Positions 22,994 to 44,795 of a DNA stretch of 64,000 nt are shown here, piece after piece. Both the position numbers and the translations under genes were made by a program. This DNA comes from a bacterium. GTDB lineage: Bacteria; Patescibacteriota; Microgenomatia; UBA1400; PJMF01. How positions within the stretch are numbered: position 1 is the first letter of the stretch; the number at the start of each line of letters is the position of its first letter. The stretch is from contig JAQBYG010000001.1 of assembly GCA_027620445.1 (NCBI GenBank), positions 5,115-69,114 on the forward strand. The letters are read 5' to 3'. Under the pieces are notes generated by a model. It ran no database searches, had not been told where the DNA came from, and saw nothing but the letters and a program-made list of their open reading frames with translations.

Positions 22994-23536
22994 TTACTTT
23001 CCTATGATGTCTTGTTCCCAGTCACGACCGAACCAGAGACCGAGTGCTAACTTTGCAATACTAGCATATTCTGTAGTTCTATCAACAAAGCCACGCGTGA
23101 TCACCCCGATTGCCCCCTGCTTTTGCTTGATGTTATCTGTGGCAAATAACTGACTGACTGCGGGACCCATCTCTGCGCCAGCAGCTAATTTGTCTGCAAT
23201 TATTTTTGGCAGTTTGAAACGCGCACCGTTGCTTTCGTAGTACTCACCTGCCTGATCGATCAGCACCACCCACACGGTCGACCAGAGCTCTCCCTCATAG
23301 ATGTGAATGCCTCCCTCGAGACCAAGACCAAGGTCGGTCGTGTTGCCACCGGCTTCGAGCGCTGCGGCAGCTCTGTTTCTCGCACCTTGGCGAGTTTCTT
23401 CGTCGCTGCGCGGTTGCTCTGAGACGCCACTCGGGACCTCAAAGCCTGTCACTATTACATCTGGCCACTGGCCTTGGGCGGCTAGCCGCACAGCATTGAG
23501 CTTGACCGGATTGGTGCTGCCGACCGCAATTTTCAT
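22994..23536 (-). CDS. Inosine/xanthosine triphosphatase (YjjX/DUF84, Maf-Ham1 superfamily)
   Basis: MKIAVGSTNPVKLNAV...PSGVSEQPRSDEETRQGARNRA... aligns with E. coli YjjX (CATTNPAKI...[22 protein letters not shown]). Start set at internal ATG. 4-nt overlap with sufU stop. Confidence 0.75.
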   Translation of the reverse strand: MKIAVGSTNPVKLNAVRLAAQGQWPDVIVTGFEVPSGVSEQPRSDEETRQGARNRAAAALEAGGNTTDLGLGLEGGIHIYEGELWSTVWVVLIDQAGEYYESNGARFKLPKIIADKLAAGAEMGPAVSQLFATDNIKQKQGAIGVITRGFVDRTTEYASIAKLALGLWFGRDWEQDIIGK

Positions 23537-23913
23537 ACTTTCTCCAGTACTTTTTGTACGGTGTTGAGGCCAAGGAGTAAACACTTCTTGCGCGCGGTCG
23601 AAAAGGTCTTGAGCCCCAGCCAGCTCAAGAGGGTGTGCTCATCCCAGGTTACTACCTCGGCGACTTGTTCTCCCTGGAGATGATCGGACAGCAAGCTCAG
23701 GCTCGCGGTGCTGATGACGCAACCGGTGCCTTGCCACTTCATGGCTGTGATGTGTTTTTTATCTGCAGTGAGCCTGACAAAAACCCGGCAGCTATCGCCG
23801 CACGAGTTTACCTCTGGCGGAGAAGTTACATCAGCATCTAGCATCTCCCCTTTATGATGTGGGTCGCGTGCTGCTTCGAGCAACTCTTCGTGATATAAAT
23901 CGTCCATCTTCAC
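23533..23913 (-). CDS. sufU: SufU/IscU-like Fe-S cluster scaffold
   Basis: NSCGDSCRVFVRL...GTGCVISTASLS are the NifU-N/SufU cysteine motifs. Confidence 0.8.
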   Translation of the reverse strand: MKMDDLYHEELLEAARDPHHKGEMLDADVTSPPEVNSCGDSCRVFVRLTADKKHITAMKWQGTGCVISTASLSLLSDHLQGEQVAEVVTWDEHTLLSWLGLKTFSTARKKCLLLGLNTVQKVLEKV

Positions 23914-23916
23914 TTT

Positions 23917-25170
23917 CTATACGTTAAAAACTTGGCGAACTTTGGCCAGTCCTGCCACCAAAGCGTCAATATCAGCAGTTGTATTGTAGACGTTAAAACT
24001 CGCGCGCACGCTCGCCGTCCAGCCGAACTGCTCATGCAGCGGCATGGTGCAGTGATGGCCACTGCGAACAGCCACCCCAACGCTATCGAGTACCTGCGCT
24101 ACATCGTGGGCGTGCACTCCGTTGTAGGTAAAAGCGACCGAGCCAACTCGATCAACCTCGGTCTCACTAAAATCCTGTGGACCGATGATTGTAAGCTGTG
24201 GTACCGCCGAGAGTTTATCGAGCGCATACAGCACAAGATCTAGATCGTGCTGCCCAACGTCGCTCATGTGGAGCTTGGACAGGTACTCACAAGCAGCGGC
24301 CAAGCCAACGGCACTGGCCACATCCGGCGTCCCAGCGGTAAATCGCTCGCTTGCTTCGTCGGTGAAAGTGGTCCCTTTTGTCGTCACCGCCGCAATCATG
24401 CCACCACCAAATAACCACGGTCGTACTTCATTCGATTGCAAAAGAGCGCTGCGAACAAACACGCCCCCAATCCCCATCGGACCGAGCATTTTATGACCGC
24501 TGAACACAAGAAAGTCTGCGTCGAGCTTGGCAAATGAAACGGGGAGGTGTGGTGCAGACTGGGCAGCGTCAACGAGTACGCGAATGCCTGATTGAAGAGT
24601 GTGTGCCTCGGCAATAATCTCGGCAATCGGGTTGAGCGTCCCCAAGGTATTGGACACGTGTGAAAGTGCAAGAAGCTTCACTTTTGGCAAGGAAAGTTTG
24701 GCGCTCAAGGATGTACGATCGAGCCGACCGTCTTTGGTGAGCCCAATATACTCGACACTCGCACCAGTTCGTTTGGCTAACTCTTGCCAACACACAATGT
24801 TGGAGTGATGCTCCATGAGTGAAGTTAGAATGATATCGCCTGCTTGTAAATTGTGATCACCCCAGCCGTAGGCCACACCATTGATTGCCTCAGTCGTGTT
24901 GCGGGTGACGATCAGTTCGTCACTGTGCGCATCAAAAAACTTTGCGATGGTCGCACGACTTTCATCCCAAACTTGTGTACTCCTATCAGAGAGTTGATGC
25001 ACGCCGCGATGCACATTGGCATTGGTCGTTTGGTAGTACTGGGTAATGGCGTCAAGAACAACTTGGGGTTTTTGGCTTGTTGCTGCGCTGTCGAGGTAGA
25101 CGAGCTTGTCTCCCTGGGGGTTGTGGGTGAAAATGGGAAAGTCTTGGCGGATTGTGAGTGGGTTGAACAT
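23917..25170 (-). CDS. sufS: Cysteine desulfurase SufS
   Basis: 417 aa class-V aminotransferase: HHSNIVCWQ, PLP-lysine region FSGHKMLGPMGIGGVF, and active-site RSGHHC. Confidence 0.9.
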   Translation of the reverse strand: MFNPLTIRQDFPIFTHNPQGDKLVYLDSAATSQKPQVVLDAITQYYQTTNANVHRGVHQLSDRSTQVWDESRATIAKFFDAHSDELIVTRNTTEAINGVAYGWGDHNLQAGDIILTSLMEHHSNIVCWQELAKRTGASVEYIGLTKDGRLDRTSLSAKLSLPKVKLLALSHVSNTLGTLNPIAEIIAEAHTLQSGIRVLVDAAQSAPHLPVSFAKLDADFLVFSGHKMLGPMGIGGVFVRSALLQSNEVRPWLFGGGMIAAVTTKGTTFTDEASERFTAGTPDVASAVGLAAACEYLSKLHMSDVGQHDLDLVLYALDKLSAVPQLTIIGPQDFSETEVDRVGSVAFTYNGVHAHDVAQVLDSVGVAVRSGHHCTMPLHEQFGWTASVRASFNVYNTTADIDALVAGLAKVRQVFNV

Positions 25171-26453
25171 TAGATAGTTTTATCAAAATTTTCAACTATA
25201 GTGTTGAAATCAAAGAGATCAATCTTACAATCTCCCACTTGGTTATAGAAACAGTTTTCTGTATCGTACACGCCAGCAGCAATACTAACATCAAAAATGT
25301 CTACTTTATTATCTCTATTAAAGTCCCCCAACAATCTTGGGACTGGTGTGGGGGATGGTGTGGGAACAGGAGTTGGTACGGGGGTTGGTGTTGGCTGCGG
25401 ACACCGACTGATGGATGCTGTACGAAAAACGTCGTGCCACGGTCGTTTTCTGCCAGTAGAATCTATCAACCCCATTGCTGGATTACTAGAAAAATCACCC
25501 ATAGTGTGAAAAAAAGCAAGCGGCACGAACGAAAATTCAGGACTCGCAAGTCGCTCGATTGATTGAGATAAAAACTCCGCCCCTTGCGCCTCTGATATTG
25601 ATGTATCAGCACCCGGAATAACATTCCAACCATACTCTGTAATCCAGATAGGCTTTTGCGCCAGCTGATGCAGTCGCTTGACACTATCAAGATCAATGGC
25701 GCCGTGCCAATTGTAGGGATGTATAGAGAAAACATCGTAAGACCTGCCACCAGGACTGGAGTGCAGTCGCTCAACAAATGGTTCGTCCAAACGATCAAGC
25801 CCGCCAACGGAAACTATGATTGATTGGGAAACAGATTTCAGAGCCTTGTAGGTGATGTCTAGCCAATATGCATAGTCACGGACGGAATCATCTGAGTTGC
25901 CACAAAATCCCGTGCTCGAGCCGCAGCCGTTTTGCTCATTCCAGTACTCATATCGTGTCACCTGTGGGTACCTGCGAGCAGCAGTTTGCAAAAATCTCGT
26001 GTAATCTTGCTCAAACTCTCGTCTGGGCAATGCTTGGTGTGCTGGTAATGATCCCTCTTTTGCCCAATCGGGCGTGCCGACGACAAGTATCGTCACTGCC
26101 AAGCCATATTTTTCCGCCTCGGCAATGTCTGCATCTAGCTGTGCAAAATTGTATGCGCCTCTGCTTCTTTCAGAAATATCCCAATTTAGTGTCAATTTGG
26201 TTGCAGTGCCTCCAGCTTCATAAATAGCTTTGTACATGTTAGAAACATTTCCTCCTGGGTTGATGCCAAATAACAAAGGCCTAGTAAAGTTTGGACACGA
26301 AATACTTGCCGCAATAGCTTGGCTGCGAAAGGCTGTGTAACATACGATTAGAAAAGCTACTATCGCGACAACAGGGAAAAAGTGTTTACGTACAGCTTGA
26401 AAATGTAACATTAGTGATATTGTAGCAAGAAAGTTGCTATGCCTGGCCGCCAT
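25170..26453 (-). CDS. Secreted clan GH-A glycoside-hydrolase-like protein (GH5/GH39-like) with Pro-Thr linker and dockerin-like C-terminus
   Basis: Signal peptide. Candidate catalytic acid/base in YEYWNEQN and nucleophile in IWITEYGW, in the right order for a (beta/alpha)8 clan GH-A enzyme. Then CPQPTPTPVPTPVPTPSPTPVP linker and two Ca-binding-like segments GDFNRDNKVDIFD / GDCKIDLFDFN. 1-nt stop/start overlap with sufS. Confidence 0.55.
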   Translation of the reverse strand: MAARHSNFLATISLMLHFQAVRKHFFPVVAIVAFLIVCYTAFRSQAIAASISCPNFTRPLLFGINPGGNVSNMYKAIYEAGGTATKLTLNWDISERSRGAYNFAQLDADIAEAEKYGLAVTILVVGTPDWAKEGSLPAHQALPRREFEQDYTRFLQTAARRYPQVTRYEYWNEQNGCGSSTGFCGNSDDSVRDYAYWLDITYKALKSVSQSIIVSVGGLDRLDEPFVERLHSSPGGRSYDVFSIHPYNWHGAIDLDSVKRLHQLAQKPIWITEYGWNVIPGADTSISEAQGAEFLSQSIERLASPEFSFVPLAFFHTMGDFSSNPAMGLIDSTGRKRPWHDVFRTASISRCPQPTPTPVPTPVPTPSPTPVPRLLGDFNRDNKVDIFDVSIAAGVYDTENCFYNQVGDCKIDLFDFNTIVENFDKTI

Positions 26454-26507
26454 AAGTATTTACCACTTCTCTATCGGTATGGTTTAAGATTACTGCAAAT
26501 ATGTGTT

Positions 26508-27003
26508 TTAGATATCGATATAAAAAATTTGTGTGATACCGTAACCATCTACCCATAAATTGGGTATCTTGAAACCGACATACTTCACAGCTACTTCTGC
26601 TTTTAACTCTCTTAATTTTTGAGCAAAACTGCAACATGCAACACACTTGACTGTAAAGCCTCTAGCGCCAGCAGGAGTGCGGCAAGTGTTGTTCTCGAAT
26701 CTATCATATCCTCAATTACAAGCACATACTTTCCCGCTAATTCCTGTTCGTCGAAATGAAAATGAATAATTGGCTTACCTGTCGACTCCATTCCCTGATA
26801 ACTACTAATCTTGACTGATTCCCAGCGAATGCTGATTCCTAATTTTTTCAGCTCAACAACAAGTTGCTCAGCAAAAACTTGGGCGCTTTCGAGCACACAA
26901 AGTACGACTAGTTCAGCATCGCTTTCACCTACGGTTTACTCTCGAAAATCGGTCGCAATTTCAGTTGCGAAACTTCTAACACGAGCGAGAATTTAGTGCT
27001 CAT
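26508..27003 (-). pseudogene. hpt: Hypoxanthine-guanine phosphoribosyltransferase gene carrying two frameshifts
   Basis: Three frames together give a colinear HPRT: MSTKFSLVLEVSQLKLRPIFESKP | GESDAELVVLCVLESAQVFAEQLVVELKKLGISIRWESVKISSYQGMESTGKPIIHFHFDEQELAGKYVLVIEDMIDSRTTLAALLLALEALQSSVLHVAVLLKN | LRELKAEVAVKYVGFKIPNLWVDGYGITQIFYIDI. The second shift is at a T5/A5 run (26616..26620); the first is near 26925..26930. Confidence 0.6.
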
Positions 27004-27424
27004 ATAACAAAATTTCTTGAACCAAAGTAACCAACTCTATCGAGGAATATGGCGCATGAAAATACTCTTCGTTTACCAAAACTACCTGAACTGACTCAGA
27101 TCCGTCCCTAGTAAAAAGCACTGGTTGTCCTGCTACAGTACTAATAGGCACCCGCTCATGAGTTTGTCTTGGGGCAGCTAGACTCAACTTTGCCTGCTCA
27201 ACAGAGCAATTTTGCCAACTCACCCAAGTTTGAGGTGGCAACGTGATTGTTCCCGAAACGGATCGTGGTTCGAGCTCACCTGGGAGGATAATACTAAATG
27301 AGCCGAACTTTCCGACTGACTTGAGCAAGCAAAGAACTGCACAATCAGCATGTGAGAGTACTTCTGGAGCTGCTCCGCAGCCATAACCAATAGGCCTTTC
27401 ACTGTTTGGTATCATGGTAGGCAA
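26993..27424 (-). CDS. Hypothetical protein
   Basis: 143 aa, no recognised motif. Sits where tilS is found in many tilS-hpt-ftsH operons but lacks the PP-loop. Possibly a remnant. Confidence 0.3.
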   Translation of the reverse strand: MPTMIPNSERPIGYGCGAAPEVLSHADCAVLCLLKSVGKFGSFSIILPGELEPRSVSGTITLPPQTWVSWQNCSVEQAKLSLAAPRQTHERVPISTVAGQPVLFTRDGSESVQVVLVNEEYFHAPYSSIELVTLVQEILLYEH

Positions 27425-27463
27425 CTATAATAAACCCTGTCAACAGTGATACTATGAGTACGC

Positions 27464-27943
27464 ATGCAAAAAATCACCAAACTCCTCGCCTCAATCGTCG
27501 GTTGTGAACTTGTCGGGATTATCGGTGGCGTGAGCACAACCTTGTCGATCAGCACTTGGTATGTCACGCTCGAAAAACCGTTCTTTTCTCCGCCGAACTG
27601 GCTCTTTGGTCCCGTCTGGACAACTTTGTATCTTTTGATGGGAGTTTCATTTTTTCTGTTGTGGCAGCAAGGCTGGAAGAAAAAACAAGTTCGGACTGCT
27701 CGCAACTACTTCTTGGCACAACTCGGGCTCAACTTTATCTGGACTCCGGTATTCTTCGGCCTGAGATCCCCCGCGCTGGCACTGGTGATAATTCTTGGCT
27801 TACTTGTCCTTATCGTGCTGACGATCAAACACACATATAAAGTGTCGCGCTGGGCTGCATACTTGCTGGTACCCTACTTGCTCTGGGTGAGTTTTGCGAC
27901 GGCGCTCAATGCGGCGATAGTGGGGTTGAATTATGCGAAATAA
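27464..27943 (+). CDS. tspO: TspO/MBR family tryptophan-rich sensory protein
   Basis: WYVTLEKPFFSPPNWLFGPVWTTLYLLMG...LAQLGLNFIWTPVFFG...AAYLLVPYLLWVSFATALNAAIVGLN. Five TM helices with all TspO signature residues. Confidence 0.85.
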   Translation: MQKITKLLASIVGCELVGIIGGVSTTLSISTWYVTLEKPFFSPPNWLFGPVWTTLYLLMGVSFFLLWQQGWKKKQVRTARNYFLAQLGLNFIWTPVFFGLRSPALALVIILGLLVLIVLTIKHTYKVSRWAAYLLVPYLLWVSFATALNAAIVGLNYAK

Positions 27944-28463
27944 ATCCATCAAAAAAATTGCCATTTACCAAACTAAGAGCGGTGCGATTGTATTTCGTGA
28001 CGATTCGAAGCGAGAAACAATTTGGGGGGATTTGAATCAAATTGCAGATTTGTTTGGTCGTGATAAATCGGTTATTTCTCGTCACATCAATAATATTTAT
28101 AAATCAAGAGAACTTGAAGAGGCAGCAACTGTTGCAAAAATTGCAACAGTTCAAAAAGAAGGTGGTAGAGAGGTAACTCGTGAGATTGAACATTTTAACC
28201 TTGATATGATTTTATCTGTCGGATACAGGGTAGATTCTAAACAAGCAACGCAATTTCGCATCTGGGCAACCAAAACCCTCAAGCAGCACATTGTCCAGGG
28301 CTACACTATCAACAAAAAACGCGTTGGCGAGAATTACGAAAAATTCATGCAAGCGGTGGCGGATGTGAAAGCCTTGACTCTCCTTTTGGCAGAAAGTAAT
28401 CCGAAAGATAAAGATAAAATGATTGGGCTAACCTTGTTACTTCTGAATGGGGGAAGACAATAG
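27933..28463 (+). CDS. RhuM-family protein, N-terminal domain (ends at in-frame TAG)
   Basis: IAIYQTKSGAIVFRDDSKRETIWGDLNQIADLFGRDKSVISRHINNIYKSRELEEAATVAKIATVQKEGGREVTREIEHFNLDMILSVGYRVDSKQATQFRIWATKTLKQHIVQGYTINKKR matches the Virulence_RhuM N-domain. Overlaps the tspO stop by 11 nt. Confidence 0.75.
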   Translation: MRNKSIKKIAIYQTKSGAIVFRDDSKRETIWGDLNQIADLFGRDKSVISRHINNIYKSRELEEAATVAKIATVQKEGGREVTREIEHFNLDMILSVGYRVDSKQATQFRIWATKTLKQHIVQGYTINKKRVGENYEKFMQAVADVKALTLLLAESNPKDKDKMIGLTLLLLNGGRQ

Positions 28464-29069
28464 ATGCATGAAGTTAATTTGCGGCGGGAACATGATAGTG
28501 ATGACTTTGACTCAACCGCCAAAACTCTTTTTGCCCTCTCTGACATAAAATGGGAACTCCTCAATTTTGTAAAAAATAATCCGGGATGTGATATCGCGAC
28601 TATTGTAGAGCAGATCGGGGCGCCAACACCCGCAGTCATCCAAAAACACTTGAAAAGATTGGAGGTGTATGGGTTTATTGCATCACAAACAGGCCACGCC
28701 GTTAAACAAACTGGCGAGAAAAGACTGCTCTACTCACTTGCCCCAAGACATATTGCAGCTGCTATGGATAGTACACGGCAAATAGAAGAAGAACTAACAA
28801 TCAAACTTGATCCTCAGCTGGTGGTACGAATCCAGCAGCTCGGAAATGAACGAAAAATACGCAATCAAATCATTTGCATTTGTACTATGCTTCAAGATAA
28901 AGCACTTACACAAAGGGAGATTTTACTCGGACTGAGAGATTACTTTACACTAAAAAACTTACCCACCAATCATGCAGAGGTGTTACGACAACTTGTCGAA
29001 GCGGAGATTTTGAGGCGGACTATCAGTGAGAGGAAGCTAGGATACATCTATCAGCTGCCCAAATCCTGA
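28464..29069 (+). CDS. Winged-helix DNA-binding protein; likely the C-terminal continuation of the RhuM-family gene
   Basis: Starts with ATG immediately after the TAG, in the same frame. ArsR/MarR-like wHTH (CDIATIVEQIGAPTPAVIQKHLKRLEVYGFIA). Combined length 377 aa is similar to full-length RhuM-family proteins. Confidence 0.45.
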   Translation: MHEVNLRREHDSDDFDSTAKTLFALSDIKWELLNFVKNNPGCDIATIVEQIGAPTPAVIQKHLKRLEVYGFIASQTGHAVKQTGEKRLLYSLAPRHIAAAMDSTRQIEEELTIKLDPQLVVRIQQLGNERKIRNQIICICTMLQDKALTQREILLGLRDYFTLKNLPTNHAEVLRQLVEAEILRRTISERKLGYIYQLPKS

Positions 29070-29137
29070 TAAAGCATTATCATTGATCACGCTTTTCACC
29101 ATGAAAAAACTGTATTTGTTAAAATGATCATACAAAT

Positions 29138-30271
29138 ATGTCAAAGAGTAGTGAACAAATTCTGGCAGAAGCAAGACCCTCTAGAAAGAGACGAAAAGCA
29201 GAACGAATTCCAAGAAGAGCATTTTCAAAAGGACTCGCTTTGTTTTTACTAGGAACAGGTGCAGTTGTAGCATCGGGAGGCGTATTTCTTTGGAACAGAG
29301 AAAAAGACAAGGTGCCCAGTGTCGAAGCATCAATTTCCTTCATAAAAAATGAAGTTGAGAATCAAAAAAACTTGCCTTCACTGAGGGAGTACGGCGAGAG
29401 AAAAACAAAGATTTTTATTTTCCATGCCTATAATATTTTCTCTCAAGTGACTGGAAGTGCTCAATCGGCTAGAGCCATCATCGACAATACCTCACTAGTT
29501 GAGGCTGCGTATATTACTGCCCTGCATCAACAAGATATGTCGGGAGTTAACCTCAGTGAGCACCCAACTGCATCTGACCCCAGGGATACTAACGGAAAAG
29601 TTTATACAGCTGATAAAAAATCGGGCAAACTTGGTGTGGCTGTTAATCTAGATGCGCACTTGTTTCACTTAGATCAAATCCGAACGCGAACATATGATCA
29701 TTTTCAGGTGCAACAAACTGTACTGGGAAATTTGCTTGACACCGTTCTGCATGAGCCACATCACTACGAAATACCACGACAAACACTGACTACACCAATC
29801 GAGTATTCATTTCAAACTGCAGTTGGCACTACACACATTTCATACGAAGAAATCTGGGGTCTATCCATAAGTGGGACACTCGAAACACCGCCATATACTA
29901 CAATGTTGTCAGCAAACTTTGATGAAGCAAGCATTTATCTGATCCACAGAGACTTGCTACAACCAGCAGTCCAATCAAATTTTCCAACATATAGCTACTC
30001 GCCTCCAATGCGGGAGAATGCTTTGTTGTACATTCAACAAGTATTCCAGGCCATAGGAATCAACTCGCCACAAGCAATTCTAGAACTCAGAAGAGCACCC
30101 AGTGGAGGTCGTACCCTCATAGAAAAATTGGGAGCAAAACTGCCAGCAGGCACTTTTGGAGTCGAAAACGCTACAGAAAGAGGTATTGTTTTCTTGGGAA
30201 AATCAGAGGCTGCAGTAGATGGCAATGATCAAAAGAAAATGGATGAGTTGCTTGGGTTGTTGATAAATTAG
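29138..30271 (+). CDS. Hypothetical membrane-anchored protein with HExxH-like motif
   Basis: 377 aa. Basic N-terminus plus one TM helix (GLALFLLGTGAVVASGGVFLW), extracytoplasmic domain containing VLHEPHHYE (H-E-x-x-H). No other recognisable domain. Confidence 0.4.
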   Translation: MSKSSEQILAEARPSRKRRKAERIPRRAFSKGLALFLLGTGAVVASGGVFLWNREKDKVPSVEASISFIKNEVENQKNLPSLREYGERKTKIFIFHAYNIFSQVTGSAQSARAIIDNTSLVEAAYITALHQQDMSGVNLSEHPTASDPRDTNGKVYTADKKSGKLGVAVNLDAHLFHLDQIRTRTYDHFQVQQTVLGNLLDTVLHEPHHYEIPRQTLTTPIEYSFQTAVGTTHISYEEIWGLSISGTLETPPYTTMLSANFDEASIYLIHRDLLQPAVQSNFPTYSYSPPMRENALLYIQQVFQAIGINSPQAILELRRAPSGGRTLIEKLGAKLPAGTFGVENATERGIVFLGKSEAAVDGNDQKKMDELLGLLIN

Positions 30272-30365
30272 GAGCAAAGGTGAAAACTGCTCGGCTTACC
30301 CAAGTATTGAGGAAAAAGCCGCGCAACTTGAAATGTTAAGTAATTCTTAACAGCTGGAAAATAGC

Positions 30366-30393
30366 TTGACGACTTAAAAAATAAGCCTATAAT
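30366..30393 (+). promoter_or_regulatory. Near-consensus sigma70-type promoter (TTGACG-16 nt-TATAAT)
   Basis: TTGACG at 30366..30371 and TATAAT at 30388..30393 with a 16-nt spacer. No protein-coding gene follows on this strand. Confidence 0.5.
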
Positions 30394-30399
30394 AGCGAA

Positions 30400-30545
30400 T
30401 CAGCAAGTCCGGGTTTGGAGGAGAAGGTGGAATCCCTCCTTAAACAATCGTATCCAGACTCCAAGTTGGAAGAGGGTGGGTTTTCAGCCTCCTCTGAAAA
30501 AGTCCGATCAAAGCGGTACTCCAGCTGCTTGTTGTATTTTTTTTG
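30400..30545 (+). ncRNA. Candidate small RNA of about 145 nt, class unknown
   Basis: Begins about 7 nt after the -10 box. 5' CAGCAAG pairs with 3' CUUGUUG directly followed by a U8 run (intrinsic-terminator-like closing stem). Internal hairpins GGAGG...CCUCC and AGAGG...CCUCU. No ORF. Confidence 0.4.
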
Positions 30546-30546
30546 A

Positions 30547-30756
30547 TCAGAGAAGCGAGCTACTCGTTTTTCTTACTCTGTCTTTGACCTCAGAGTGAGT
30601 AAGCATTTTCAACATTTGATAATCGTGTCTACCGAGATAATAAACGAACTGTCCAATGCTTTCATTAAAAAATGCAGCTTCGATGGTAAATGTCATTCCT
30701 TCATAACGAACAAGATCGCCTTGCTTAAATAATGGCTCATCTTTTGGTTTTGACAT
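30547..30756 (-). CDS. Small hypothetical protein
   Basis: 69 aa, downstream of the short sufD in the same orientation. No motif. Confidence 0.3.
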   Translation of the reverse strand: MSKPKDEPLFKQGDLVRYEGMTFTIEAAFFNESIGQFVYYLGRHDYQMLKMLTHSEVKDRVRKTSSSLL

Positions 30757-30823
30757 AGTTAGATTATTCTAGTTTTTGAACTGTTTCCAAAATGAAAATA
30801 ACCACTTCGTGCCAAAGCTTCCC

Positions 30824-31312
30824 TCATTCTACCCCCAAAAAACCCTCCACAATCAGCCCCTCCGCCTTATTGCGACTCACCCCGCGACTCATGAGATAAA
30901 ACAGTTGTTCCTCGGGAATTGAGCTGATGCTCGCCGCGTGAGAGCACTTGACGTCGTCAGTCAAAATCTCGAGCTCTGGCACTGCCTCTGCCTTTGCTTC
31001 TGGTGAAAGTAACAGGATGCGCTCGGTCAGGAATGAGTTGGTGTCGGGACACTCGGGATCAATTTTTATCTTGCCCCAAAATGAGATAAACCCTGTATCA
31101 GCCACAGCCCCGTGCAGCTTGGTGGTCGCTCGGGTGTGCGGGGCTTGGTGGTGGATAGTGACGGCAATTTTGATGCGCTCGGTACCGGTGGCATGGAAGC
31201 TACCAGTGAGTGTCAACTCCACACTTGGCTTGGTCAAGAAATACTCGTACTCGCCCGGGGTTGAGATCGTAATATTTTGTGACTCGCTGATGGTGGTTTG
31301 GATTGCCGACAT
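30824..31312 (-). CDS. sufD: Minimal SufD-like Fe-S assembly protein (SufBD C-terminal beta-helix only)
   Basis: 162 aa. C-terminal ...[29 protein letters not shown] parallels the SufB C-terminus ([26 protein letters not shown]). 1-nt overlap with the sufB stop. Confidence 0.6.
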   Translation of the reverse strand: MSAIQTTISESQNITISTPGEYEYFLTKPSVELTLTGSFHATGTERIKIAVTIHHQAPHTRATTKLHGAVADTGFISFWGKIKIDPECPDTNSFLTERILLLSPEAKAEAVPELEILTDDVKCSHAASISSIPEEQLFYLMSRGVSRNKAEGLIVEGFLGVE

Positions 31313-32739
31313 TACCCGATGCTCCCTTCCATCTCGTGATCAATCAGACGATTCATCTCGACCGCGTATTCGAGTGGCAGTTTTTTGATGAGATCACCGA
31401 TAAAACCGTGCACGATCATTTTGCGGGCTGCTTCTTCGTTGACGCCGCGACTCATGAGATAAAACAGCTGCTCGTCGCCGATTTTAGAAACGGTTGCTTC
31501 GTGCTGAATTGCTACATCTGAGGCAAATACTTTATCGACGGGGTACGTGTCGGAGCGAGATTCTGGATCCAGGAGGAGTGCGTCACAGATGACAGAGTTT
31601 TGACTGTGGTGGGCGTGTGGCCCGACCGAGACAAGGCCCCGATAGCTCGTGCGGCCGCCATTTTTACTAATCGACTTTGAAACTATTGAAGAGCTCGTGT
31701 AGGGCGCCAAGTGAATCGCTTTGCTGCCGGTATCTTGATGCTGACCAGCGCCGGCCAGAGCCATGCTCAGCGTCTCGCCTCTGGCACCTTTGCCTGCGAG
31801 AATGAAACTGGGGTACTTCATCGTGACCTTGGAGCCCATGTTAAAGTCCGTCCAGATCATCTCGCCCTCAGCCTCGACGCGCGCGCGCTTGGTGACGAGG
31901 TTGTAGACGTTTTTGTACCAGTTTTGGATGGTGGTGTATTGGCAGCGTGCGCCAGCTTTGACGTAGATCTCGACAACCGCAGAATGGAGCGAGCCGCTCG
32001 AAAAACTTGGGGCGGTGCACCCTTCAACATAATGCACACTCGCACCTTCGTCGACGATAATGAGCGTACGCTCGAACTGGCCAGCGTTGGGTGAGTTAAT
32101 GCGAAAGTAGGTCTGGAGTGGGAGCTGCACTTTGACATTTTTTGGAATGTACACAAAAGAGCCACCCGACCAGACTGCTGAGTTGAGCGCCGCAAACGTG
32201 TTGTCACCACTCGGGATCAGTTTACCAAAGTATTCCTTGACCAATTCGGGGTACTGCGCCAATCCCTCGTCCATCGAGAGAAAAATGACACCGTCTTTGG
32301 CGTAGGCTGCCTTGAGCGAACCGTACACAACCTCGCTATCGTACTGGGCTTTGACACCCGCGAGCACACCGCGCTCTGCCTCGGGGATGCCGAGTTTGTC
32401 AAAGGTCGCTTTGACCTCTGGAGGGACGTCGTCCCAGGACTTGGACTGAGCATCGGTTGGCTTGAGGTAGTAGTGAATGTCGTCAAAAGCTATGCCAGAG
32501 AGATCGGCGCCCCACGGGGGCAACTGCATGTGCTGGTACTGCTCTAGTGCCTTGAGTCGGTACTGGAGCATCCAATCTGGTTCAGATTTGAATGCAGAAA
32601 TTTCTCCTACCACCCGCTTCGATAAACCAGGTTTGGCGATGTGTTTGTAGCCTGCCGTCGAGGAAGAGTAGCCATGCTCGTATGTCTCGTCTCGGCTTGG
32701 GGTGAAGGCGGTAGTGTGTTTTTGCGCAAAACGAGCCAT
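31312..32739 (-). CDS. sufB: Fe-S cluster assembly protein SufB
   Basis: 475 aa. Conserved SufB core and C-terminal signature. Confidence 0.9.
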
Positions 32740-33200
32740 CAGGTATTGCTCCGGACCAGTATCTGGCGAATAAATCCGTTGGGCTCTCCTGCAAAACCAA
32801 AGTCATACAAACCAAGCTCTGCAAACGAAACCCAAGCAAACTCGGTGTGCTCGCTACTGAGGCGTACTTTTTGTGTACCAGACAAGGCAACCCTCCAACC
32901 AACAATGAGTGAATACACTTGCCTTTCGGCGTCAAAGTAGGTATCAAAATAAATCGGCTGAGTGAACATGCTGTTTGCCAGGGAGATTCCTGTTTCTTCC
33001 ATAATTTCACGCGTAATATCGTCTTGGTGTAAGCCGTGTTGCGTTCGTTGCATCTCTGGCCACTCGCTATTGCCGCCAGGGAGATCCCATTTTCCTGCAC
33101 GTGTTTTACTGTCATCTGCTCGCTTGAGGATGAGAACTTGGCCATCAGCCACCAGGGCAGCTTTTTGCAGTACTTTTACCTGTTCTGTGAGTTGATGCAT
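32739..33200 (-). CDS. NUDIX hydrolase
   Basis: Nudix box GGNSEWPE-x7-REIMEETGI. Embedded between sufC and sufB with 1-4 nt overlaps. Confidence 0.8.
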
Positions 33201-33203
33201 AGT

Positions 33204-33962
33204 CTAGTCCTTGAGCGTTGTGTAGCCTGATTTCTCGAGCTTCTCGACCAATTCTGGACCGCCAGATTGTTTTATTTTACCCGCAACGAGCACGTGGACA
33301 ACATCTGGTTTGAGGTACTGCAAAATGCGCTGATAATGGGTAATAACCAAGACGCCCAGGGAAAATTTCTTTTGCAAAACAGCAACGGCCTTTGCAACTT
33401 TTTTGATGGCGTCGATATCGAGCCCCGAGTCTGTCTCATCGAGAATAACGTACTTGGGTTCGAGCACCGCTAGTTGCAAAATCTCGAGCTGCTTCTTCTC
33501 ACCACCGCTGAATCCTTCATTGAGCCCACGCCTAAGAAACGTCTCGTCAATTTTGAGCTCCTGAGCAATTGCCTTGAGGTGGTTGCGAAACGCCAAGACT
33601 GTTTTGAATTGGCGGTTGGGCTCACTGGCAAACCGCGCTTGGTAGGCTTGGCGCAGGAAGTTCTGGACCGAGACACCGGGCACTTCGACCGGATACTGGA
33701 AAGCTAGAAACAAGCCTTTTTGGGCGCGCTCGTCGGGGGAAAGCTCGATAATATCTTCGCCGTCGAGTGTCACTTTTGAACCCGAGAGGATGGTGTATGA
33801 CGGATGACCTGCCAGCGCATACGCGAGCGTACTTTTGCCCGAGCCATTGGGACCCATGATCGCGTGCAGCTCTCCCGGCTTGAGCGTCAGTGACACACCA
33901 TTGAGAATCTGCTTCTCATCGATTGAAACTTGTAAATTGGTGAGTTGTAATCCCTTTGTCAT
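33204..33962 (-). CDS. sufC: Fe-S cluster assembly ATPase SufC
   Basis: MTKGLQLTNLQVSIDEKQILNGVSLTLKPGELHAIMGPNGSGKST (Walker A), ABC signature LSGGEKK-like FSGGEKKQ, Walker B ILDETDSGLD. Start set at internal ATG. Confidence 0.9.
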   Translation of the reverse strand: MTKGLQLTNLQVSIDEKQILNGVSLTLKPGELHAIMGPNGSGKSTLAYALAGHPSYTILSGSKVTLDGEDIIELSPDERAQKGLFLAFQYPVEVPGVSVQNFLRQAYQARFASEPNRQFKTVLAFRNHLKAIAQELKIDETFLRRGLNEGFSGGEKKQLEILQLAVLEPKYVILDETDSGLDIDAIKKVAKAVAVLQKKFSLGVLVITHYQRILQYLKPDVVHVLVAGKIKQSGGPELVEKLEKSGYTTLKD

Positions 33963-34020
33963 GCAGGGGGGATTATAGCAGCACTTGACTATATACACCA
34001 CAAAATGATATATATACACC

Positions 34021-34269
34021 ATGCAAAGATATCAAGTATATTTTGAACCCAGCACAATGGACACGCTACAACAACTTGGGCAAATGTCTGGTGTTTCGAG
34101 ATCACACTTGTTGCAAGAATTGGCAGATATACTTGCCACACGCTATAAATCCTTTGTAAAACAGGAACAAAAAACCATGGGAAATATTCTAAACTTATCT
34201 GGAATCATCTCTGGAAAATCAACTACACACACAGCTACAAAATCTGATGCCGAGTACTTCGGCATATAA
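34021..34269 (+). CDS. Ribbon-helix-helix (CopG-like) antitoxin, VapB-like
   Basis: RYQVYFEPSTMDTLQQLGQMSGVSRSHLLQELADILA fits the RHH beta-alpha-alpha fold. Its stop is 1 nt before the PIN gene start. Confidence 0.55.
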   Translation: MQRYQVYFEPSTMDTLQQLGQMSGVSRSHLLQELADILATRYKSFVKQEQKTMGNILNLSGIISGKSTTHTATKSDAEYFGI

Positions 34270-34270
34270 A

Positions 34271-34690
34271 ATGAAAATCCTTCTTGATACCAGCGTACTT
34301 ATTTCGCTACAGGTTGATACAGAAGCGACACATGCAAAAGTACAAAAATACCTGGCAGAACAACAAAGACTTGGCAGTAGATTCCTGGTTACAGACTATG
34401 TGCTTGATGAACTATTTACCAGAATCTTGTATGACTTTGGTGCCAAGGCTGCAAAAGTATCCACAAAAGCTATCGCCAAAGAACTAGAAAACGGTTCTCT
34501 CCACTTATTTCCTATTTCTTCTGACCTCTTCAATCGAGCACAAGACATTTTTGTTGAAATGGCTACCAGAAAATTCTCATTTACAGATGCTTCTACCTTG
34601 GCCGTATATCGCCACTATAAAATTGATGAAATCTGTACGCTTGATGGAGGATTTCACAAAGCAGGGGCTGTTATCAGCTATCTTGACTAA
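34271..34690 (+). CDS. vapC: PIN-domain toxin (VapC-like)
   Basis: MKILLDTSVLIS (first Asp), DYVLDE and FTDASTLAV acidic motifs. About 140 aa. Confidence 0.8.
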   Translation: MKILLDTSVLISLQVDTEATHAKVQKYLAEQQRLGSRFLVTDYVLDELFTRILYDFGAKAAKVSTKAIAKELENGSLHLFPISSDLFNRAQDIFVEMATRKFSFTDASTLAVYRHYKIDEICTLDGGFHKAGAVISYLD

Positions 34691-36630
34691 TGTAACTGCT
34701 CTTGAAACTGCTTTCTTTGCTGCAGAAAGCGAAGCTTGTCGTCCAAGACCGATCGCACATACCAATATGCCTCTACCGGATGAAAGAGGCAGTAGCGAAT
34801 TGCTTTGGCACAGTTTGGGGCAAGGTAAACGTCGACATCTTGCGAAAAAGCCCCCGCTGTAATCAGCGCGTTCACATGCATCGGTTTTTGCGCAACAATG
34901 TCAATAAAGATCATTCCATTACTACCGTGCGGAGGCAAGCTGCTTGCGGTAGCTTCGGCCGCTGAGAGCGAGATGTCTGGCGGTTCAGAAAGAAGTATGG
35001 GAAAGCCTTCACTGTCGTTTGGAAACAATACGAGTCGAGCAGGATTTCTGCCTGCAACAGCGTAACGATTATTGATGAAGAGCGTGGTCTGTTCAACAAC
35101 TATCTCACCTAGTTGAATTTCGGGAAATAATTGGCCTTTCTTACTTTTGCGCTCTGAAGCAAGTAACTCGGGTGAGGAAAACGGGGTGTAGGTGTTATTG
35201 CTTACTGCAAATCCCCAAGCTGGAAGCCCTACAGTTGTTTGCCAATCCAAAGTAATTTGAGGTCCCCCTTGCAGTAACTCAAATGAATTTGGAGAAAAGC
35301 GAATAATCGATGTAGTTATTTCCTCAAATGAAAGTGGTGACAAGTCACTTGCTATCTCCCAAAGCTTCGCCTCTGGATACGAGCTCGGTCGATCTTTGAG
35401 AACATCATTGCGCGCTGCCTGCCCCACCTGTGTTGTGCTCCCTCTGGAGCCATCCAGAATGTAGGGCACAATCCACCACCCCATACTCCTTGCCGTATCG
35501 TCCAGGTATGGATCGGGAAATTGCTCGTCGTAGATTCTCAGATCGGTAATTGCCAATGTGCCATCACTCAATCGCAAACGAACTCGATACTTAGGTGTCG
35601 TAATCCACCAAGCTCGTTCTGCTGCATCTGTTTGACTGACACCTTCATAGACCGACATTTTTTGTACAGGCTGCGTCCGCATCCATGAGTAAAAATCGCC
35701 CGCTGTAACAACCCGACCGTGCGAGTTTGCTTGCCAGTTCTCAACTACATCAAGCTGCTGAAAAAACTCCTGTTGGTTCTCGGCCGCGAGCGAGTTTTCT
35801 ATTCCAAGCTGGGCAAAGGTATAGCCATTGCTTGCCGGCTGGTCGTGCGCCTGTAGAAATAAGTGGGAAAAATACTCTGTCGTGGCACCACGCAAGCGAT
35901 AATCATTTGGTTGGGAGGTAAACGCACTCGTCTGGTCACCATAGTTATAGACCGGATCAGTGATCGTTTGACGGAGAATCAAAGTCGAATCCACAGCACT
36001 CTCGCTCGGCATCACTGCCCAGTCCGCGCCGCTCCAATACGGGTAATGTGGCGGACCACCATACAGCGTGTACGAATCTGTACCAAACTGTTCACGCGTA
36101 ATCTCATGAGTGGTAACCCCATACTCATTTCGCAGGTACCTGAGTGAAAAAGGATCAATCATCCAGGCCGTCGTGGTCTTTGGGTACACTCCAAAAACTG
36201 TTTTAAACTGCTCCATGTACGCGTCAATCAATGCCGCTCGCTCCTCTTGTGAGTAGCCAACTAAAAAGACATGCTGTGCCTCAAACCAGTTTTCTGCAGA
36301 ACCGGTGTACTCCACACTCGCTGCCTCAGCTAACGAGGGAGTGACTTCGAGTAACCCCCCGTACTCAAACTCAGGATAATTCTTGATAGCGGCGACAAAA
36401 TCTGGGTTACTCAGAGCGTCGTAGCGAATAGTAAAAGTAGCAGCCAGATTTCTGTTTTGTAACTCTCGCTGTTGCTCACTAAAAGCAGCTACAGTTCCCG
36501 CATCACAACACTCAGTACCGCGTACTTGGTTGATAATGACGGCATAGTGAGGAATATCTTCTACGGCAAATGCCGGCGAATACGTGCTACACAAACCAAA
36601 TAAAAAAACAACAAAAATCAAGATTCGCAT
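34687..36630 (-). CDS. Large secreted hypothetical protein
   Basis: 647 aa with a cleavable signal peptide (MRILIFVVFLFGLCSTYSPAFA). No confidently recognised domain. Possibly carbohydrate-active, but this is only a guess from composition. Confidence 0.45.
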   Translation of the reverse strand: MRILIFVVFLFGLCSTYSPAFAVEDIPHYAVIINQVRGTECCDAGTVAAFSEQQRELQNRNLAATFTIRYDALSNPDFVAAIKNYPEFEYGGLLEVTPSLAEAASVEYTGSAENWFEAQHVFLVGYSQEERAALIDAYMEQFKTVFGVYPKTTTAWMIDPFSLRYLRNEYGVTTHEITREQFGTDSYTLYGGPPHYPYWSGADWAVMPSESAVDSTLILRQTITDPVYNYGDQTSAFTSQPNDYRLRGATTEYFSHLFLQAHDQPASNGYTFAQLGIENSLAAENQQEFFQQLDVVENWQANSHGRVVTAGDFYSWMRTQPVQKMSVYEGVSQTDAAERAWWITTPKYRVRLRLSDGTLAITDLRIYDEQFPDPYLDDTARSMGWWIVPYILDGSRGSTTQVGQAARNDVLKDRPSSYPEAKLWEIASDLSPLSFEEITTSIIRFSPNSFELLQGGPQITLDWQTTVGLPAWGFAVSNNTYTPFSSPELLASERKSKKGQLFPEIQLGEIVVEQTTLFINNRYAVAGRNPARLVLFPNDSEGFPILLSEPPDISLSAAEATASSLPPHGSNGMIFIDIVAQKPMHVNALITAGAFSQDVDVYLAPNCAKAIRYCLFHPVEAYWYVRSVLDDKLRFLQQRKQFQEQLH

Positions 36631-38438: not shown

Positions 38439-38642
38439 GTGATGAAAAATATATTTCTGCAACAATTAGAAGAAAATGAAGAATCCAGACAAGTAAGAAT
38501 TCGCGTGTTTGGACCACCTCCTGCAAACGAAGACGAGGGCATTAGACCAGGAAAATCTGTGTCCGAAATCTTGAATGCAATGAAAAAAGCCTCGAAAGAA
38601 AATCTGCTGCGTGTCCCCCGAAGTAATGCAATCACCAACTAA
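38439..38642 (+). CDS. Small acidic protein, putative antitoxin partner of downstream PIN protein
   Basis: 67 aa. Overlaps the PIN gene start. No fold assignable. Confidence 0.3.
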
Positions 38643-43672: not shown

Positions 43673-43678
43673 ACTATT

Positions 43679-44167: not shown

Positions 44168-44180
44168 AGCTTTCTCCTCT

Positions 44181-44757: not shown

Positions 44758-44795
44758 TCTTTATATGATACCATATGTGGTATCATATACAAGAA

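What the first reader, a model, noticed from the sequence alone, without database searches (positions are those of the whole stretch)
26454..30545. AT-rich accessory island inserted between the sufS-sufU and sufC-sufB-sufD clusters
SUF genes are normally contiguous. Here sufC-nudix-sufB-sufD' (34.0-30.8 kb) and sufS-sufU (25.2-23.5 kb) are separated by about 4 kb. That stretch is visibly more AT-rich than the flanks and half of it is on the opposite strand. It carries a frameshifted hpt, tspO, a RhuM-family gene (a marker of mobile/defence islands, often inside type I R-M loci) interrupted by TAG, an HExxH membrane protein and the orphan sRNA. The pattern fits horizontally acquired cargo undergoing decay rather than core metabolism.
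Basis: partly seen in the sequence, partly recalled or inferred. Interest (0 to 1): 0.55.

Follow-up and report, generated by a model that had tools for sequence, protein, structure and literature searches.

The report
Decaying accessory genes splitting suf operon
In this ultra-small (Patescibacteria) bacterium, the iron-sulfur assembly operon is split by a 5.65-kb patchwork of lineage-specific accessory genes, two of them visibly broken, at a junction where related genomes carry nothing or quite different inserts; this is an ordinary variable hot spot, not a new kind of element.

Summary
The split is real. sufD' (30824-31312) and sufS (23917-25170) are 5.65 kb apart, not about 4 kb. Twelve related Microgenomates lineages carry both genes on one contig. 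Five have them adjacent and seven hold inserts. Apart from the GH gene, which is shared within the window's own clade, those inserts are unrelated to one another.

L102 (SufB 94% identical) reads sufD'-GH-sufS. It is effectively the empty site for the window-specific 4.3-kb cargo (26454-30781). The two closest relatives carry a type I hsdM directly after sufD'.

The AT-richness is modest: GC 0.426 against 0.472, within the lowest 5% of equal-sized windows. tspO is not AT-poor.

hpt is a pseudogene with two in-frame TAA codons and a 1-nt frameshift. The RhuM gene is not interrupted by TAG. It has an in-frame deletion of about 150 codons that removes the whole Fic/DOC core, and TAG is its native stop. 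The next ORF is a separate winged-helix gene.

The HExxH gene is intact and belongs to a very rare family that looks zincin-like. The "sRNA" is only a promoter-plus-terminator candidate.

No integrase, tRNA or flanking repeats were found.

Verdict: the region is layered insertion and decay at a recurrent hot spot. Interest is low to moderate.

The parts
30824..31312 (-). Short sufD' (162 aa). It is the right-hand conserved flank and the last gene of sufC-Nudix-sufB-sufD'.
   Evidence: PF01458 E 3e-41. It is 71-91% identical to 150-177-aa SufD proteins of Patescibacteria.
30782..30823 (-). Conserved spacer just downstream of sufD'. Similarity to relatives ends here, so this marks the right edge of the cargo.
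   Evidence: blastn similarity to L089/L090 runs to 30782, and to L087/L088 only to 30821. A short peptide match to the L089 62-aa ORF lies at 30781-30807.
30547..30756 (-). orf69, a small hydrophilic ORF of unknown function, co-directional with suf.
   Evidence: No Pfam, NCBIfam, PHROG or PADLOC match. No tblastn hit in any related locus.
30366..30546 (+). Orphan promoter-like site (30366-30393) followed by a 150-nt unit that ends in a hairpin and T8. It is an sRNA candidate, or alternatively a 43-codon ORF (30415-30546).
   Evidence: TTGACG-16-TATAAT matches 11 of 12 positions, with a terminator-like hairpin at 30511-30530. MFE -46.2 kcal/mol, z -1.70. No Rfam family. The ORF is listed. No similar DNA in the fetched loci or in metagenome contigs.
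29138..30271 (+). Intact 377-aa HExxH protein with a Tat-like RR signal or anchor. It is a putative secreted or membrane-anchored zincin-like metallohydrolase from a very rare family.
28464..29069 (+). Separate 201-aa winged-helix (MarR/Csa3-like) protein. Its ATG directly follows the RhuM stop (TAGATG).
   Evidence: Weak MarR_2/LexA wHTH hits. Csa3 E 8e-7 and SoFic C-terminus E 5e-4. It is not covered by any RhuM homologue. No close relatives in JGI metagenomes or IMG/VR.
27933..28463 (+). Fic-less remnant of a RhuM/Fic/DOC gene (176 aa). Profile positions 1-148 are joined in frame to 299-325, with the junction at about 28376. TAG is the native stop.
   Evidence: It is 81% identical to 328-aa RhuM+Fic proteins over the N-terminal 148 aa only. 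hmmsearch finds two colinear pieces, hmm 1-148 and 299-325. The invariant H264-PFxDGNKR-272 is absent. It matches PADLOC PDC-S23/S05.
27464..27943 (+). Intact tspO (159 aa). It overlaps the RhuM remnant's start by 11 nt.
   Evidence: PF03073 E 6e-50, covering 2-143 of 145. Homologues are 62-72% identical in Pacebacteria, Woesebacteria and other Patescibacteria. GC3 0.61, synonymous-usage z -2.3.
26993..27424 (-). orf143, an unknown ORF. Its last ~13 codons look like the N-terminus of the hpt pseudogene, so the ORF probably runs into it.
   Evidence: No family match. No relatives in IMG/VR. The tail LVTLVQEILLYEH* lies in frame with hpt.
26508..27034 (-). hpt pseudogene. It has in-frame TAA codons at 26993-26995 and 26936-26938, and a 1-nt frameshift in an A5 run at about 26615-26621. 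The PRPP motif reads EDMIDSRTTL (Gly to Arg).
   Evidence: Three-frame translation and coordinates. The repaired conceptual protein aligns colinearly to M. tuberculosis Hpt residues 23-181 at E 8e-18. TIGR01203 scores 44.7 bits on the longest fragment, against a cut-off of 150.
25170..26453 (-). Glycosyl-hydrolase-like secreted protein (427 aa; signal peptide, GH_cc core, Pro/Thr linker, dockerin-like tail). This is the older layer of the filler, and its stop overlaps the sufS start.
   Evidence: PF11790 E 3e-7. Orthologues occupy the same position in L093 (66% identical) and in L102, L103 and L104 (61-63%). The TAATG overlap is shown.
23917..25170 (-). sufS (417 aa), the left-hand conserved flank, followed by sufU at 23533-23913.
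   Evidence: It is 53-80% identical to the SufS of relatives in conserved synteny sufS-sufU-ITPase-FNR-Fdx-DsbA. The orthologues carry Pfam Aminotran_5 and NifU_N.

Best explanation
The spacer between sufD' and sufS is a recurrent insertion and turnover hot spot in this Microgenomates (Patescibacteria) lineage. The window's 5.65-kb filler is a layered mosaic, not one element.

Layer 1 is the older one. It is a secreted glycosyl-hydrolase-like gene, now translationally abutting sufS, and it is shared with relatives whose SufB is 89-95% identical.

Layer 2 is the 4.3-kb cargo at 26454-30781, which has no counterpart in any fetched relative. It has two parts:
- A co-directional stretch made of orf143 and a dead hpt.
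- An opposite-strand, tightly packed block of tspO, a Fic-less RhuM remnant, a wHTH gene and an HExxH zincin-like gene, followed by an orphan promoter/terminator unit and by orf69, which is co-directional with suf.

What is shown:
- Gene content, the lesions, the synteny and the composition.
- hpt was inactivated by two nonsense codons and a homopolymer frameshift.
- The RhuM/Fic/DOC gene (a candidate single-gene phage-defence toxin, PADLOC PDC-S23/S05) lost its whole catalytic Fic core through an in-frame deletion of about 150 codons.

What is inferred:
- The deletion arose between short imperfect repeats (AAGCnTTG).
- The cargo arrived by homologous or illegitimate recombination of transformed DNA, not by a site-specific integrase. 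It was probably part of a defence-type islet like the type I R-M genes at this junction in the two closest relatives, and it is now eroding.
- The region has no collective function today. tspO, wHTH, the HExxH protein and orf69 are kept as individual accessory genes.
- sufSU is probably now expressed from a promoter upstream of orf143 (the TTGACA-18-TACCAT site at 27443-27414).
For: Synteny:
- The order Nudix2-sufC-(Nudix)-sufB-sufD'-[gap]-sufS-sufU-ITPase-FNR-Fdx-DsbA is conserved in L001-L012.
- The gap is 18-79 nt in L002, L005, L006, L008 and L011.
- It is 0.55-1.7 kb in L012, L010, L007, L001 and L003, with mutually unrelated ORFs.
- L093 has a 6-kb gap with two GH paralogues and three unknown ORFs.
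- L102 and L103 have only GH in the gap.
- L087 and L101 (SufD' 90-91% identical) have two different hsdM genes directly after sufD'.
- No cargo gene hits any of these loci.

Composition: GC is 0.426 against 0.472, in the lowest 5% of equal-sized windows. Per-gene GC ranges from 0.39 to 0.49. The gaps of four of the five relatives with 0.55-1.7-kb inserts are clearly lower in GC than their loci, and the fifth (L012) is about equal.

Decay: the hpt evidence is, and the RhuM evidence.

Junction microhomology.

No mobility signature.

Linkage: an independent assembly (L096, 100% identical over 27401-31943) links the opposite-strand block to sufD'/sufB.

Background from papers: RhuM genes are enriched next to type I R-M loci (PMC9881135). 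Genomic islands, including one carrying type I R-M, are already documented in Patescibacteria (PMC12455944).
Against: - The closest relatives with long enough contigs are still distant (SufS 76-80% identical). The timing and number of insertion events are therefore not resolved.
- The contigs of the two closest relatives end inside or just after hsdM, so a shared ancestry between their R-M loci and the window's RhuM remnant is conjecture.
- No hsd remnant was found in the window.
- The orf143|tspO junction (27425-27463) rests on the window assembly alone. Two other assemblies break there.
- The donor of no cargo gene has been identified.
- TspO and RhuM homologues are common within the phylum, so 'horizontal' here may mean intra-phylum shuffling.
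Confidence: 0.78

Rival explanations
1. The region is a single, recently integrated mobile genomic island or prophage remnant. The whole 4-kb stretch arrived in one site-specific event and is now decaying.
For: - The cargo is absent from all relatives.
- It is mildly AT-rich.
- The opposite-strand block is compact, with overlapping or abutting genes.
- The RhuM family is typical of defence and mobile contexts.
- Other assemblies break at the block's left edge.
Against: - No integrase, transposase, relaxase or phage gene was found.
- There is no tRNA within the region.
- Only chance-level repeats occur at the edges.
- Composition is heterogeneous: tspO has GC3 0.61, against 0.34-0.40 for its neighbours.
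- RhuM, TspO and HExxH homologues sit singly in unrelated contexts elsewhere.
- wHTH and orf143 have no relatives in IMG/VR.
Confidence: 0.1
2. The region is an eroded type I restriction-modification or defence islet. The locus once held hsdM/S/R with an embedded RhuM-Fic gene, as in the closest relatives. The hsd genes were lost and the RhuM remnant is the last trace. This is a more specific version of the best explanation for part of the cargo, not an exclusive alternative.
For: - hsdM lies immediately after sufD' in L087 and L101, the two closest relatives.
- RhuM is enriched beside type I R-M, with an odds ratio of 14 (PMC9881135).
- In L099/L100 a 69%-identical TspO lies next to a type I R-M locus and an IS.
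- The RhuM gene is inactivated.
Against: - No hsdM, hsdS or hsdR remnant is detectable in the window (tblastn; Pfam).
- The two relatives' hsdM genes belong to different subfamilies, so they are independent arrivals.
- The nearest full-length RhuM-Fic homologues (L081, L083) are not inside R-M loci. One is beside an Mrr gene.
Confidence: 0.3
3. The layout is ancestral. The filler genes were present in the common ancestor and were lost in the relatives.
For: The GH gene is indeed shared with L093 and L102.
Against: - Apart from GH, the gap contents of different genomes are unrelated to one another.
- Adjacency is found in five divergent lineages, and the Anaerolineae outgroup L013 has sufB-sufD-sufS within 0.5 kb.
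- L102 shows sufD'-GH-sufS without the cargo.
Confidence: 0.03
4. The region is an assembly artefact. The metagenome-assembled contig joins two strains or loci inside the region.
For: - L096 begins at window 27401, and L097 spans exactly 27426-28376. Two other assemblies therefore break at the orf143|tspO spacer, and one breaks at the RhuM deletion junction.
Against: - Both sides of the suspect join are anchored in the expected syntenic suf halves.
- L096 independently links tspO through HExxH and orf69 to sufD' and sufB at 100% identity.
- A chimeric join would change details but not the finding that foreign genes lie between sufD' and sufS.
Confidence: 0.06

Closest known systems
Chromosomal integration hot spots or 'defence islets' between conserved core genes. 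Examples are the Listeria monocytogenes immigration control region between lmo0301 and lmo0305 (PMC10059834) and the hot spots of the E. coli pan-genome (PMC10121019).
   Same: A fixed junction between conserved genes holds different cargo in different genomes, often defence-related. Here that means type I hsdM in two relatives, PIN-like genes in another, and a RhuM/Fic remnant in the window. The cargo is lower in GC than its surroundings.
   Different: The hot spot here lies inside a housekeeping operon (suf) of a streamlined Patescibacteria genome. No integrase or att site is associated with it. Most of the window's cargo is not recognisably defensive (tspO, hpt, GH, HExxH).
Genomic islands of Patescibacteria described from aquifer MAGs, including an island with a complete type I R-M system (PMC12455944).
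   Same: Same phylum, same kind of small low-GC accessory region, and gene exchange mostly within the phylum.
   Different: The window's region lacks a functional defence system, is partly pseudogenised, and was defined here by synteny, not by island-prediction software.
RhuM/Fic/DOC family proteins (Pfam PF13310 + PF02661; PADLOC candidate systems PDC-S23 and PDC-S05), often found beside type I R-M genes (PMC9881135).
   Same: The N-terminal 148 residues are 81% identical to full-length members, and the C-terminal 27 residues and the native stop are retained.
   Different: The whole Fic core, including the invariant HPFxDGNKR motif, is deleted in frame. The product therefore cannot act as a Fic/DOC enzyme. 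At most it is a DNA-binding stub.
Zincin-type HExxH metallohydrolases (thermolysin-like/M30, M1, YbeY, SprT; PDB 3cmn 'putative hydrolase, novel fold').
   Different: There is no sequence-family match and no Foldseek match. Only 17 relatives were found among 1.84 billion cluster representatives. The fold outside the active-site helices is unmatched.

Membership tests
Classical integrative genomic island | Atypical base composition relative to the host | tested here: met
   GC is 0.426 against 0.472, in the lowest 5% of 4.1-kb windows. The deviation is modest and heterogeneous.
Classical integrative genomic island | Sporadic distribution: absent at the same site in related genomes | tested here: met
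   No cargo gene is present in L001-L013, L087-L095 or L101-L104. L102 shows sufD'-GH-sufS.
Classical integrative genomic island | Integrase, transposase or other mobility gene | tested here: not met
   Pfam, NCBIfam and PHROG scans of all ORFs in 25170-30756 found none.
Classical integrative genomic island | Flanking direct repeats (att) and/or an adjacent tRNA gene | tested here: not met
   Only 12-20-nt chance-level repeats were found, and none bracket the cargo. The only tRNA in the window is at 3087-3163.
RhuM/Fic/DOC (PF13310+PF02661; PADLOC PDC-S23) | N-terminal RhuM/DNA-binding region | tested here: met
   PF13310 E 5e-25. PDC-S23 E 2e-59. 81% identical to P0001 over residues 1-148.
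RhuM/Fic/DOC (PF13310+PF02661; PADLOC PDC-S23) | Fic core with the HPFx[D/E]GN[G/K]R motif | tested here: not met
   Profile positions 149-298, which include the invariant H264-R272, are missing. hmmsearch finds only positions 1-148 and 299-325, joined in frame.
Hypoxanthine phosphoribosyltransferase (TIGR01203) | Colinear similarity over the whole enzyme | tested here: met
   The repaired conceptual translation aligns to Hpt 4rht residues 23-181 at E 8e-18.
Hypoxanthine phosphoribosyltransferase (TIGR01203) | Uninterrupted reading frame that reaches the family cut-off | tested here: not met
   There are two in-frame TAA codons and one frameshift. The longest fragment scores 44.7 bits against a cut-off of 150.
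TspO/MBR (PF03073) | Full-length match above Pfam's gathering score | tested here: met
   169 bits against a cut-off of 24, covering profile positions 2-143 of 145. It falls below the alphaproteobacterial equivalog cut-off, 112 against 180.
Type I restriction-modification locus | hsdM, hsdS and hsdR genes or their remnants | tested here: not met
   None by Pfam. tblastn with the L087 HsdM gave E 0.27 elsewhere in the window. hsdM is present at the same junction in L087 and L101 only.
Zincin metallopeptidase | HExxH plus a third ligand conserved across the family | tested here: met
   H205, E206, H209 and E263 are invariant in 14 sequences.
Zincin metallopeptidase | Fold similarity to solved zincins, or membership of a curated peptidase family | tested here: inconclusive
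   [not shown]
Known bacterial sRNA or cis-regulatory RNA (Rfam) | Match to a covariance model | tested here: not met
   Nothing at gathering threshold. Only chance-level hits at E <= 10.
Independent sRNA gene (generic) | Own promoter and intrinsic terminator | tested here: met
   An 11-of-12 promoter match lies at 30366-30393, and a hairpin at 30511-30530 is followed by T8. These are consensus-level matches only.
Independent sRNA gene (generic) | Structure more stable than shuffles, or conservation and covariation | tested here: inconclusive
   z is -1.70, and 12 of 200 shuffles fold as well. No homologue is available for covariation. A 43-codon ORF overlaps it.

The most novel reading that the evidence does not exclude
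The sufD'|sufS spacer may be a dedicated, integrase-independent landing pad for defence and accessory cargo across Microgenomates, with type I R-M in the closest relatives and a Fic-toxin relic here.

Within it, the retained parts may not be junk. The Fic-less RhuM stub and the abutting wHTH gene could form a domesticated regulator pair. The orphan promoter-terminator unit could be a new sRNA or micro-protein. The HExxH protein could found a structurally new, Patescibacteria-restricted metallohydrolase family.
Probability: 0.1. Interest if true: 0.5.

Novelty: new member of a known kind. Interest (0 to 1): 0.28.

Why it matters
The finding gives a clean, synteny-anchored example of gene gain, turnover and pseudogenisation inside a housekeeping operon of a streamlined, episymbiotic-type bacterium, in which non-functional DNA would be expected to be rare. 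An 'empty site' relative and defence genes at the same junction in the nearest relatives make the case unusually clear.

It also shows one way a Fic-type toxin can be disarmed, by an in-frame deletion of its core. And it flags a very rare HExxH protein family.

None of this changes current concepts. Islands and R-M cargo in Patescibacteria are already described.

Tried and rejected
- The exact look-up of the window's SufB found nothing. The genome turned out to be in the collection anyway, through TspO.
- I searched for flanking direct or inverted repeats and found only chance-level matches.
- A tRNA or tmRNA as an integration target was rejected. The only tRNA and the tmRNA lie at 3-7 kb.
- I tested the reading 'RhuM interrupted by TAG' by searching with the read-through product. 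No homologue covers the downstream 201 aa, so that reading was rejected.
- I looked for the deleted Fic core elsewhere in the window. One 13-aa match (30291-30329, SAYPSIEEKAAQL, profile positions 244-256) has E 0.001 for the fragment alone but about 1 window-wide. At nucleotide level, 5 of 438 control windows score as well. It is left as unproven.
- I tested whether the ORF downstream of a full-length RhuM (L083, 156 aa) resembles the wHTH gene. It does not.
- I looked for close relatives of wHTH and orf143 in JGI metagenomes and IMG/VR, and found none.
- An exact 23-mer from the sRNA candidate had no match in metagenome contigs.
- PDB sequence searches for wHTH and orf143 found nothing significant.

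Full report
**Source organism.** The best matches of the window's SufB are metagenome-assembled Patescibacteria of the Microgenomates type (Pacebacteria, Woesebacteria, Chisholmbacteria) at 69-78% identity. Closer relatives were reached through SufD' and lie at 71-91% identity. A TspO protein 100% identical to the window's is recorded at NCBI as 'MAG: bacterium' on an 80-kb contig. Two other assemblies of the same population reproduce part of the region at 100% identity (L096 and L097).

**Checking the observation.** The ORF map and family scans give the following layout.
- Minus strand, right side: sufC 33204-34022, a Nudix gene 32739-33200, sufB 31312-32739, and a short sufD' 30824-31312.
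- Minus strand, left side: sufS 23917-25170 and sufU 23533-23913.
- The distance from the sufD' stop to the sufS start is 5,653 bp, not about 4 kb.
Its stop overlaps the sufS start codon (TAATG).

GC of 26454-30545 is 0.426, against 0.472 for the window. Among sliding windows of equal size the mean is 0.472 (sd 0.022), and only 5% are as low. All the others that low lie at 41-48 kb. The visual contrast is heightened because the suf genes are GC-rich (0.52-0.53). Within the region, GC ranges from 0.39 (RhuM remnant) to 0.49 (tspO, GC3 0.61). The opposite-strand part (27464-30546) is 71% of the cargo and 55% of the whole gap.

**Synteny.** I ran tblastn with the window's proteins against the twelve closest GTDB species representatives. 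It shows a conserved order: Nudix2-sufC-(Nudix)-sufB-sufD'-[gap]-sufS-sufU-ITPase-FNR-ferredoxin-DsbA.
- The sufD'-sufS gap is 18-79 nt in L002, L005, L006, L008 and L011.
- It is 551, 767, 1046, 1228 and 1735 nt in L012, L010, L007, L001 and L003.
- Those five gaps hold unrelated ORFs (a PIN-like protein, RNase HII on the other strand, and unknown proteins of 241 and 544 aa). Four of them are clearly lower in GC than their locus, and L012 is about equal.
- L009 has no sufS within 10 kb.
- The Anaerolineae outgroup L013 has sufB-sufD-sufS within 0.5 kb.

The closer relatives are the most informative.
- L093 (SufB 91%, SufS 76% identical) has a 6-kb gap with two GH paralogues (47% and 66% identical to the window's GH) and three unknown ORFs.
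- L102, L103 and L104 (SufB 89-95%, SufS 80%) read sufD'-141 nt-GH-6 nt-sufS. That is the window's layout minus its cargo.
- L087 and L101 (SufD' 90-91%, the closest found) each have a type I hsdM right after sufD', from two different subfamilies.
- L089 has two small ORFs there, one of them MazG-like by eye.

No gene of the window's cargo hits any of these loci. Nucleotide similarity to relatives stops at 30782-30821, just past sufD'. The GH gene is therefore an older layer. The stretch 26454-30781 (4.3 kb) is specific to the window's lineage, and this junction is recurrently occupied by different DNA.

**Gene-by-gene anatomy.**

*hpt (26508-27034, minus strand).* The reading frame contains TAA at 26993-26995 and at 26936-26938, and it shifts by one base in an A5 run at about 26615-26621. 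A conceptual repair aligns colinearly with M. tuberculosis Hpt residues 23-181 at E 8e-18. The PRPP loop reads EDMIDSRTTL where HPRTs have Gly. The last ~13 codons of 'orf143' are in frame with hpt and resemble its N-terminus, so that ORF probably reads into the pseudogene. This last point is an inference.

*tspO (27464-27943).* The gene is intact. Homologues of 62-72% identity are common in Pace- and Woesebacteria. Elsewhere they sit alone among housekeeping genes (L098), or beside a type I R-M locus and an IS (L099/L100).

*RhuM (27933-28463).* A search with the read-through product found 328-aa RhuM+Fic proteins that match only the first ~148 residues, at about 80% identity. The sequences and a 28-member profile show that positions 1-148 are joined in frame to positions 299-325. 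The deleted part contains the invariant H264-PFxDGNKR-272. The gene ends where its homologues end, so TAG is the native stop. The DNA on both sides of the deletion in the L081 homologue carries AAGCnTTG, which is compatible with a microhomology-mediated deletion; that is an inference. PADLOC files the family under candidate defence systems PDC-S23 and PDC-S05. A published survey finds RhuM genes enriched next to type I R-M loci (PMC9881135).

*wHTH (28464-29069).* This is a separate gene with weak MarR/Csa3/SoFic-C-terminal similarity. No close relatives were found in JGI metagenomes or IMG/VR.

*HExxH protein (29138-30271).*
- Only 17 relatives exist among 1.84 billion representatives, the best at 38% identity.
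- That best relative is encoded in an unrelated context, next to an MFS transporter and toxin-antitoxin genes.
- HExxH, E263 and an N-terminal RRxF signal or anchor are conserved.
- The AlphaFold model is confident (pLDDT 84.5, pTM 0.80).

*30272-30546.* This stretch holds the best promoter match of the region (11 of 12 positions), a hairpin and T8. The fold is only marginally better than shuffles (z -1.7). No Rfam family matches, no similar DNA was found, and a 43-codon ORF overlaps it.

*orf69 (30547-30756).* It has no match anywhere.

**Edges and mobility signatures.** There is no integrase, transposase or phage gene. There is no tRNA nearby. No direct or inverted repeats bracket either the cargo or the opposite-strand block.

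**Interpretation.** The filler was built in layers at a hot spot, and part of it is eroding. The picture of one AT-rich island does not. The GH layer is older, composition is mixed, several genes are intact and typical of the phylum, and there is no integration machinery.

I infer that the DNA entered by recombination after uptake, with local deletions afterwards. The hsdM genes in the two nearest relatives, together with the disarmed RhuM/Fic gene, make a former defence islet plausible for part of the cargo. I put that sub-hypothesis at about 0.3, but no hsd remnant is present.

An assembly chimera is unlikely to change the picture. L096 links the opposite-strand block to sufD'/sufB independently. 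The 27401-27463 join does rest on one assembly, and two other assemblies break there. One of them also breaks exactly at the RhuM deletion junction, which hints at strain heterogeneity.

**Comparison with what is known, and novelty.** Variable hot spots between conserved genes that collect R-M and other defence genes are well described (PMC10059834 and PMC10121019). Genomic islands in Patescibacteria, including one with type I R-M, are also described (PMC12455944). This is a new instance of that kind.

Its mildly unusual traits are its position inside the suf operon, the presence of two clear pseudogenes in a streamlined genome, and a very rare HExxH family. I rate interest at about 0.28.

Noticed in passing
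[not shown]
   Followed up: partly
window 27401-27426 and 28376; loci L096, L097: Two other assemblies of the same population are 100% identical to the window. Both break at the orf143|tspO spacer, and one (L097) also ends exactly at the RhuM deletion junction. This suggests co-existing variants, for example a full-length RhuM allele, or graph branching caused by paralogues.
   Followed up: no
window 30291-30329 (+): The stretch translates to SAYPSIEEKAAQL, which matches RhuM/Fic profile positions 244-256 inside the deleted core. E is 0.001 for the fragment alone but about 1 for the whole window. It may be a relic of a Fic segment inside the 'sRNA' intergenic region, but that is unproven.
   Followed up: partly
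window 34021-36630: A second insertion lies next to the suf cluster: an RHH-PIN (VapBC-like) pair on the plus strand and a 647-aa ORF of unknown function, between sufC and the Nudix2 gene. L093 shares it. It is absent in L001, L002, L004, L005 and L010, where Nudix2 abuts sufC. In L093 the 647-aa gene appears fragmented.
   Followed up: partly
window 32739-33200 (-): A Nudix hydrolase gene sits inside the operon between sufC and sufB. It is present in only part of the relatives (L003, L004, L009, L089, L093).
   Followed up: no
window 30824-31312 (-): SufD in this lineage is a 162-aa protein that covers only the C-terminal part of the SUFBD core. Sizes of 150-177 aa are the rule among more than 100 Patescibacteria homologues, so this is a conserved minimal SufD and not a truncation.
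   Followed up: partly
L087 886-2475; L101 803-1117: The two closest relatives (SufD' 90-91% identical) each carry a type I R-M hsdM gene immediately after sufD'. The two HsdM proteins are not detectably similar to each other by tblastn, which implies independent arrivals at the same junction.
   Followed up: partly
window 25170-26453 (-); L093 10588-13695: The secreted GH_cc-like protein has a Pro/Thr linker and a dockerin-like C-terminal module. L093 carries two paralogues of it, one with an extra domain of about 250 aa. A cohesin/dockerin-type module is unexpected in a Patescibacteria genome.
   Followed up: no
window 38611-39144, 43034-45395: Other low-GC patches of the window also carry accessory or toxin-antitoxin genes: a PIN protein (GC 0.35), a HicB antitoxin, a C39-like peptidase and unknown ORFs. 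Low GC therefore marks accessory genes throughout this genome.
   Followed up: partly
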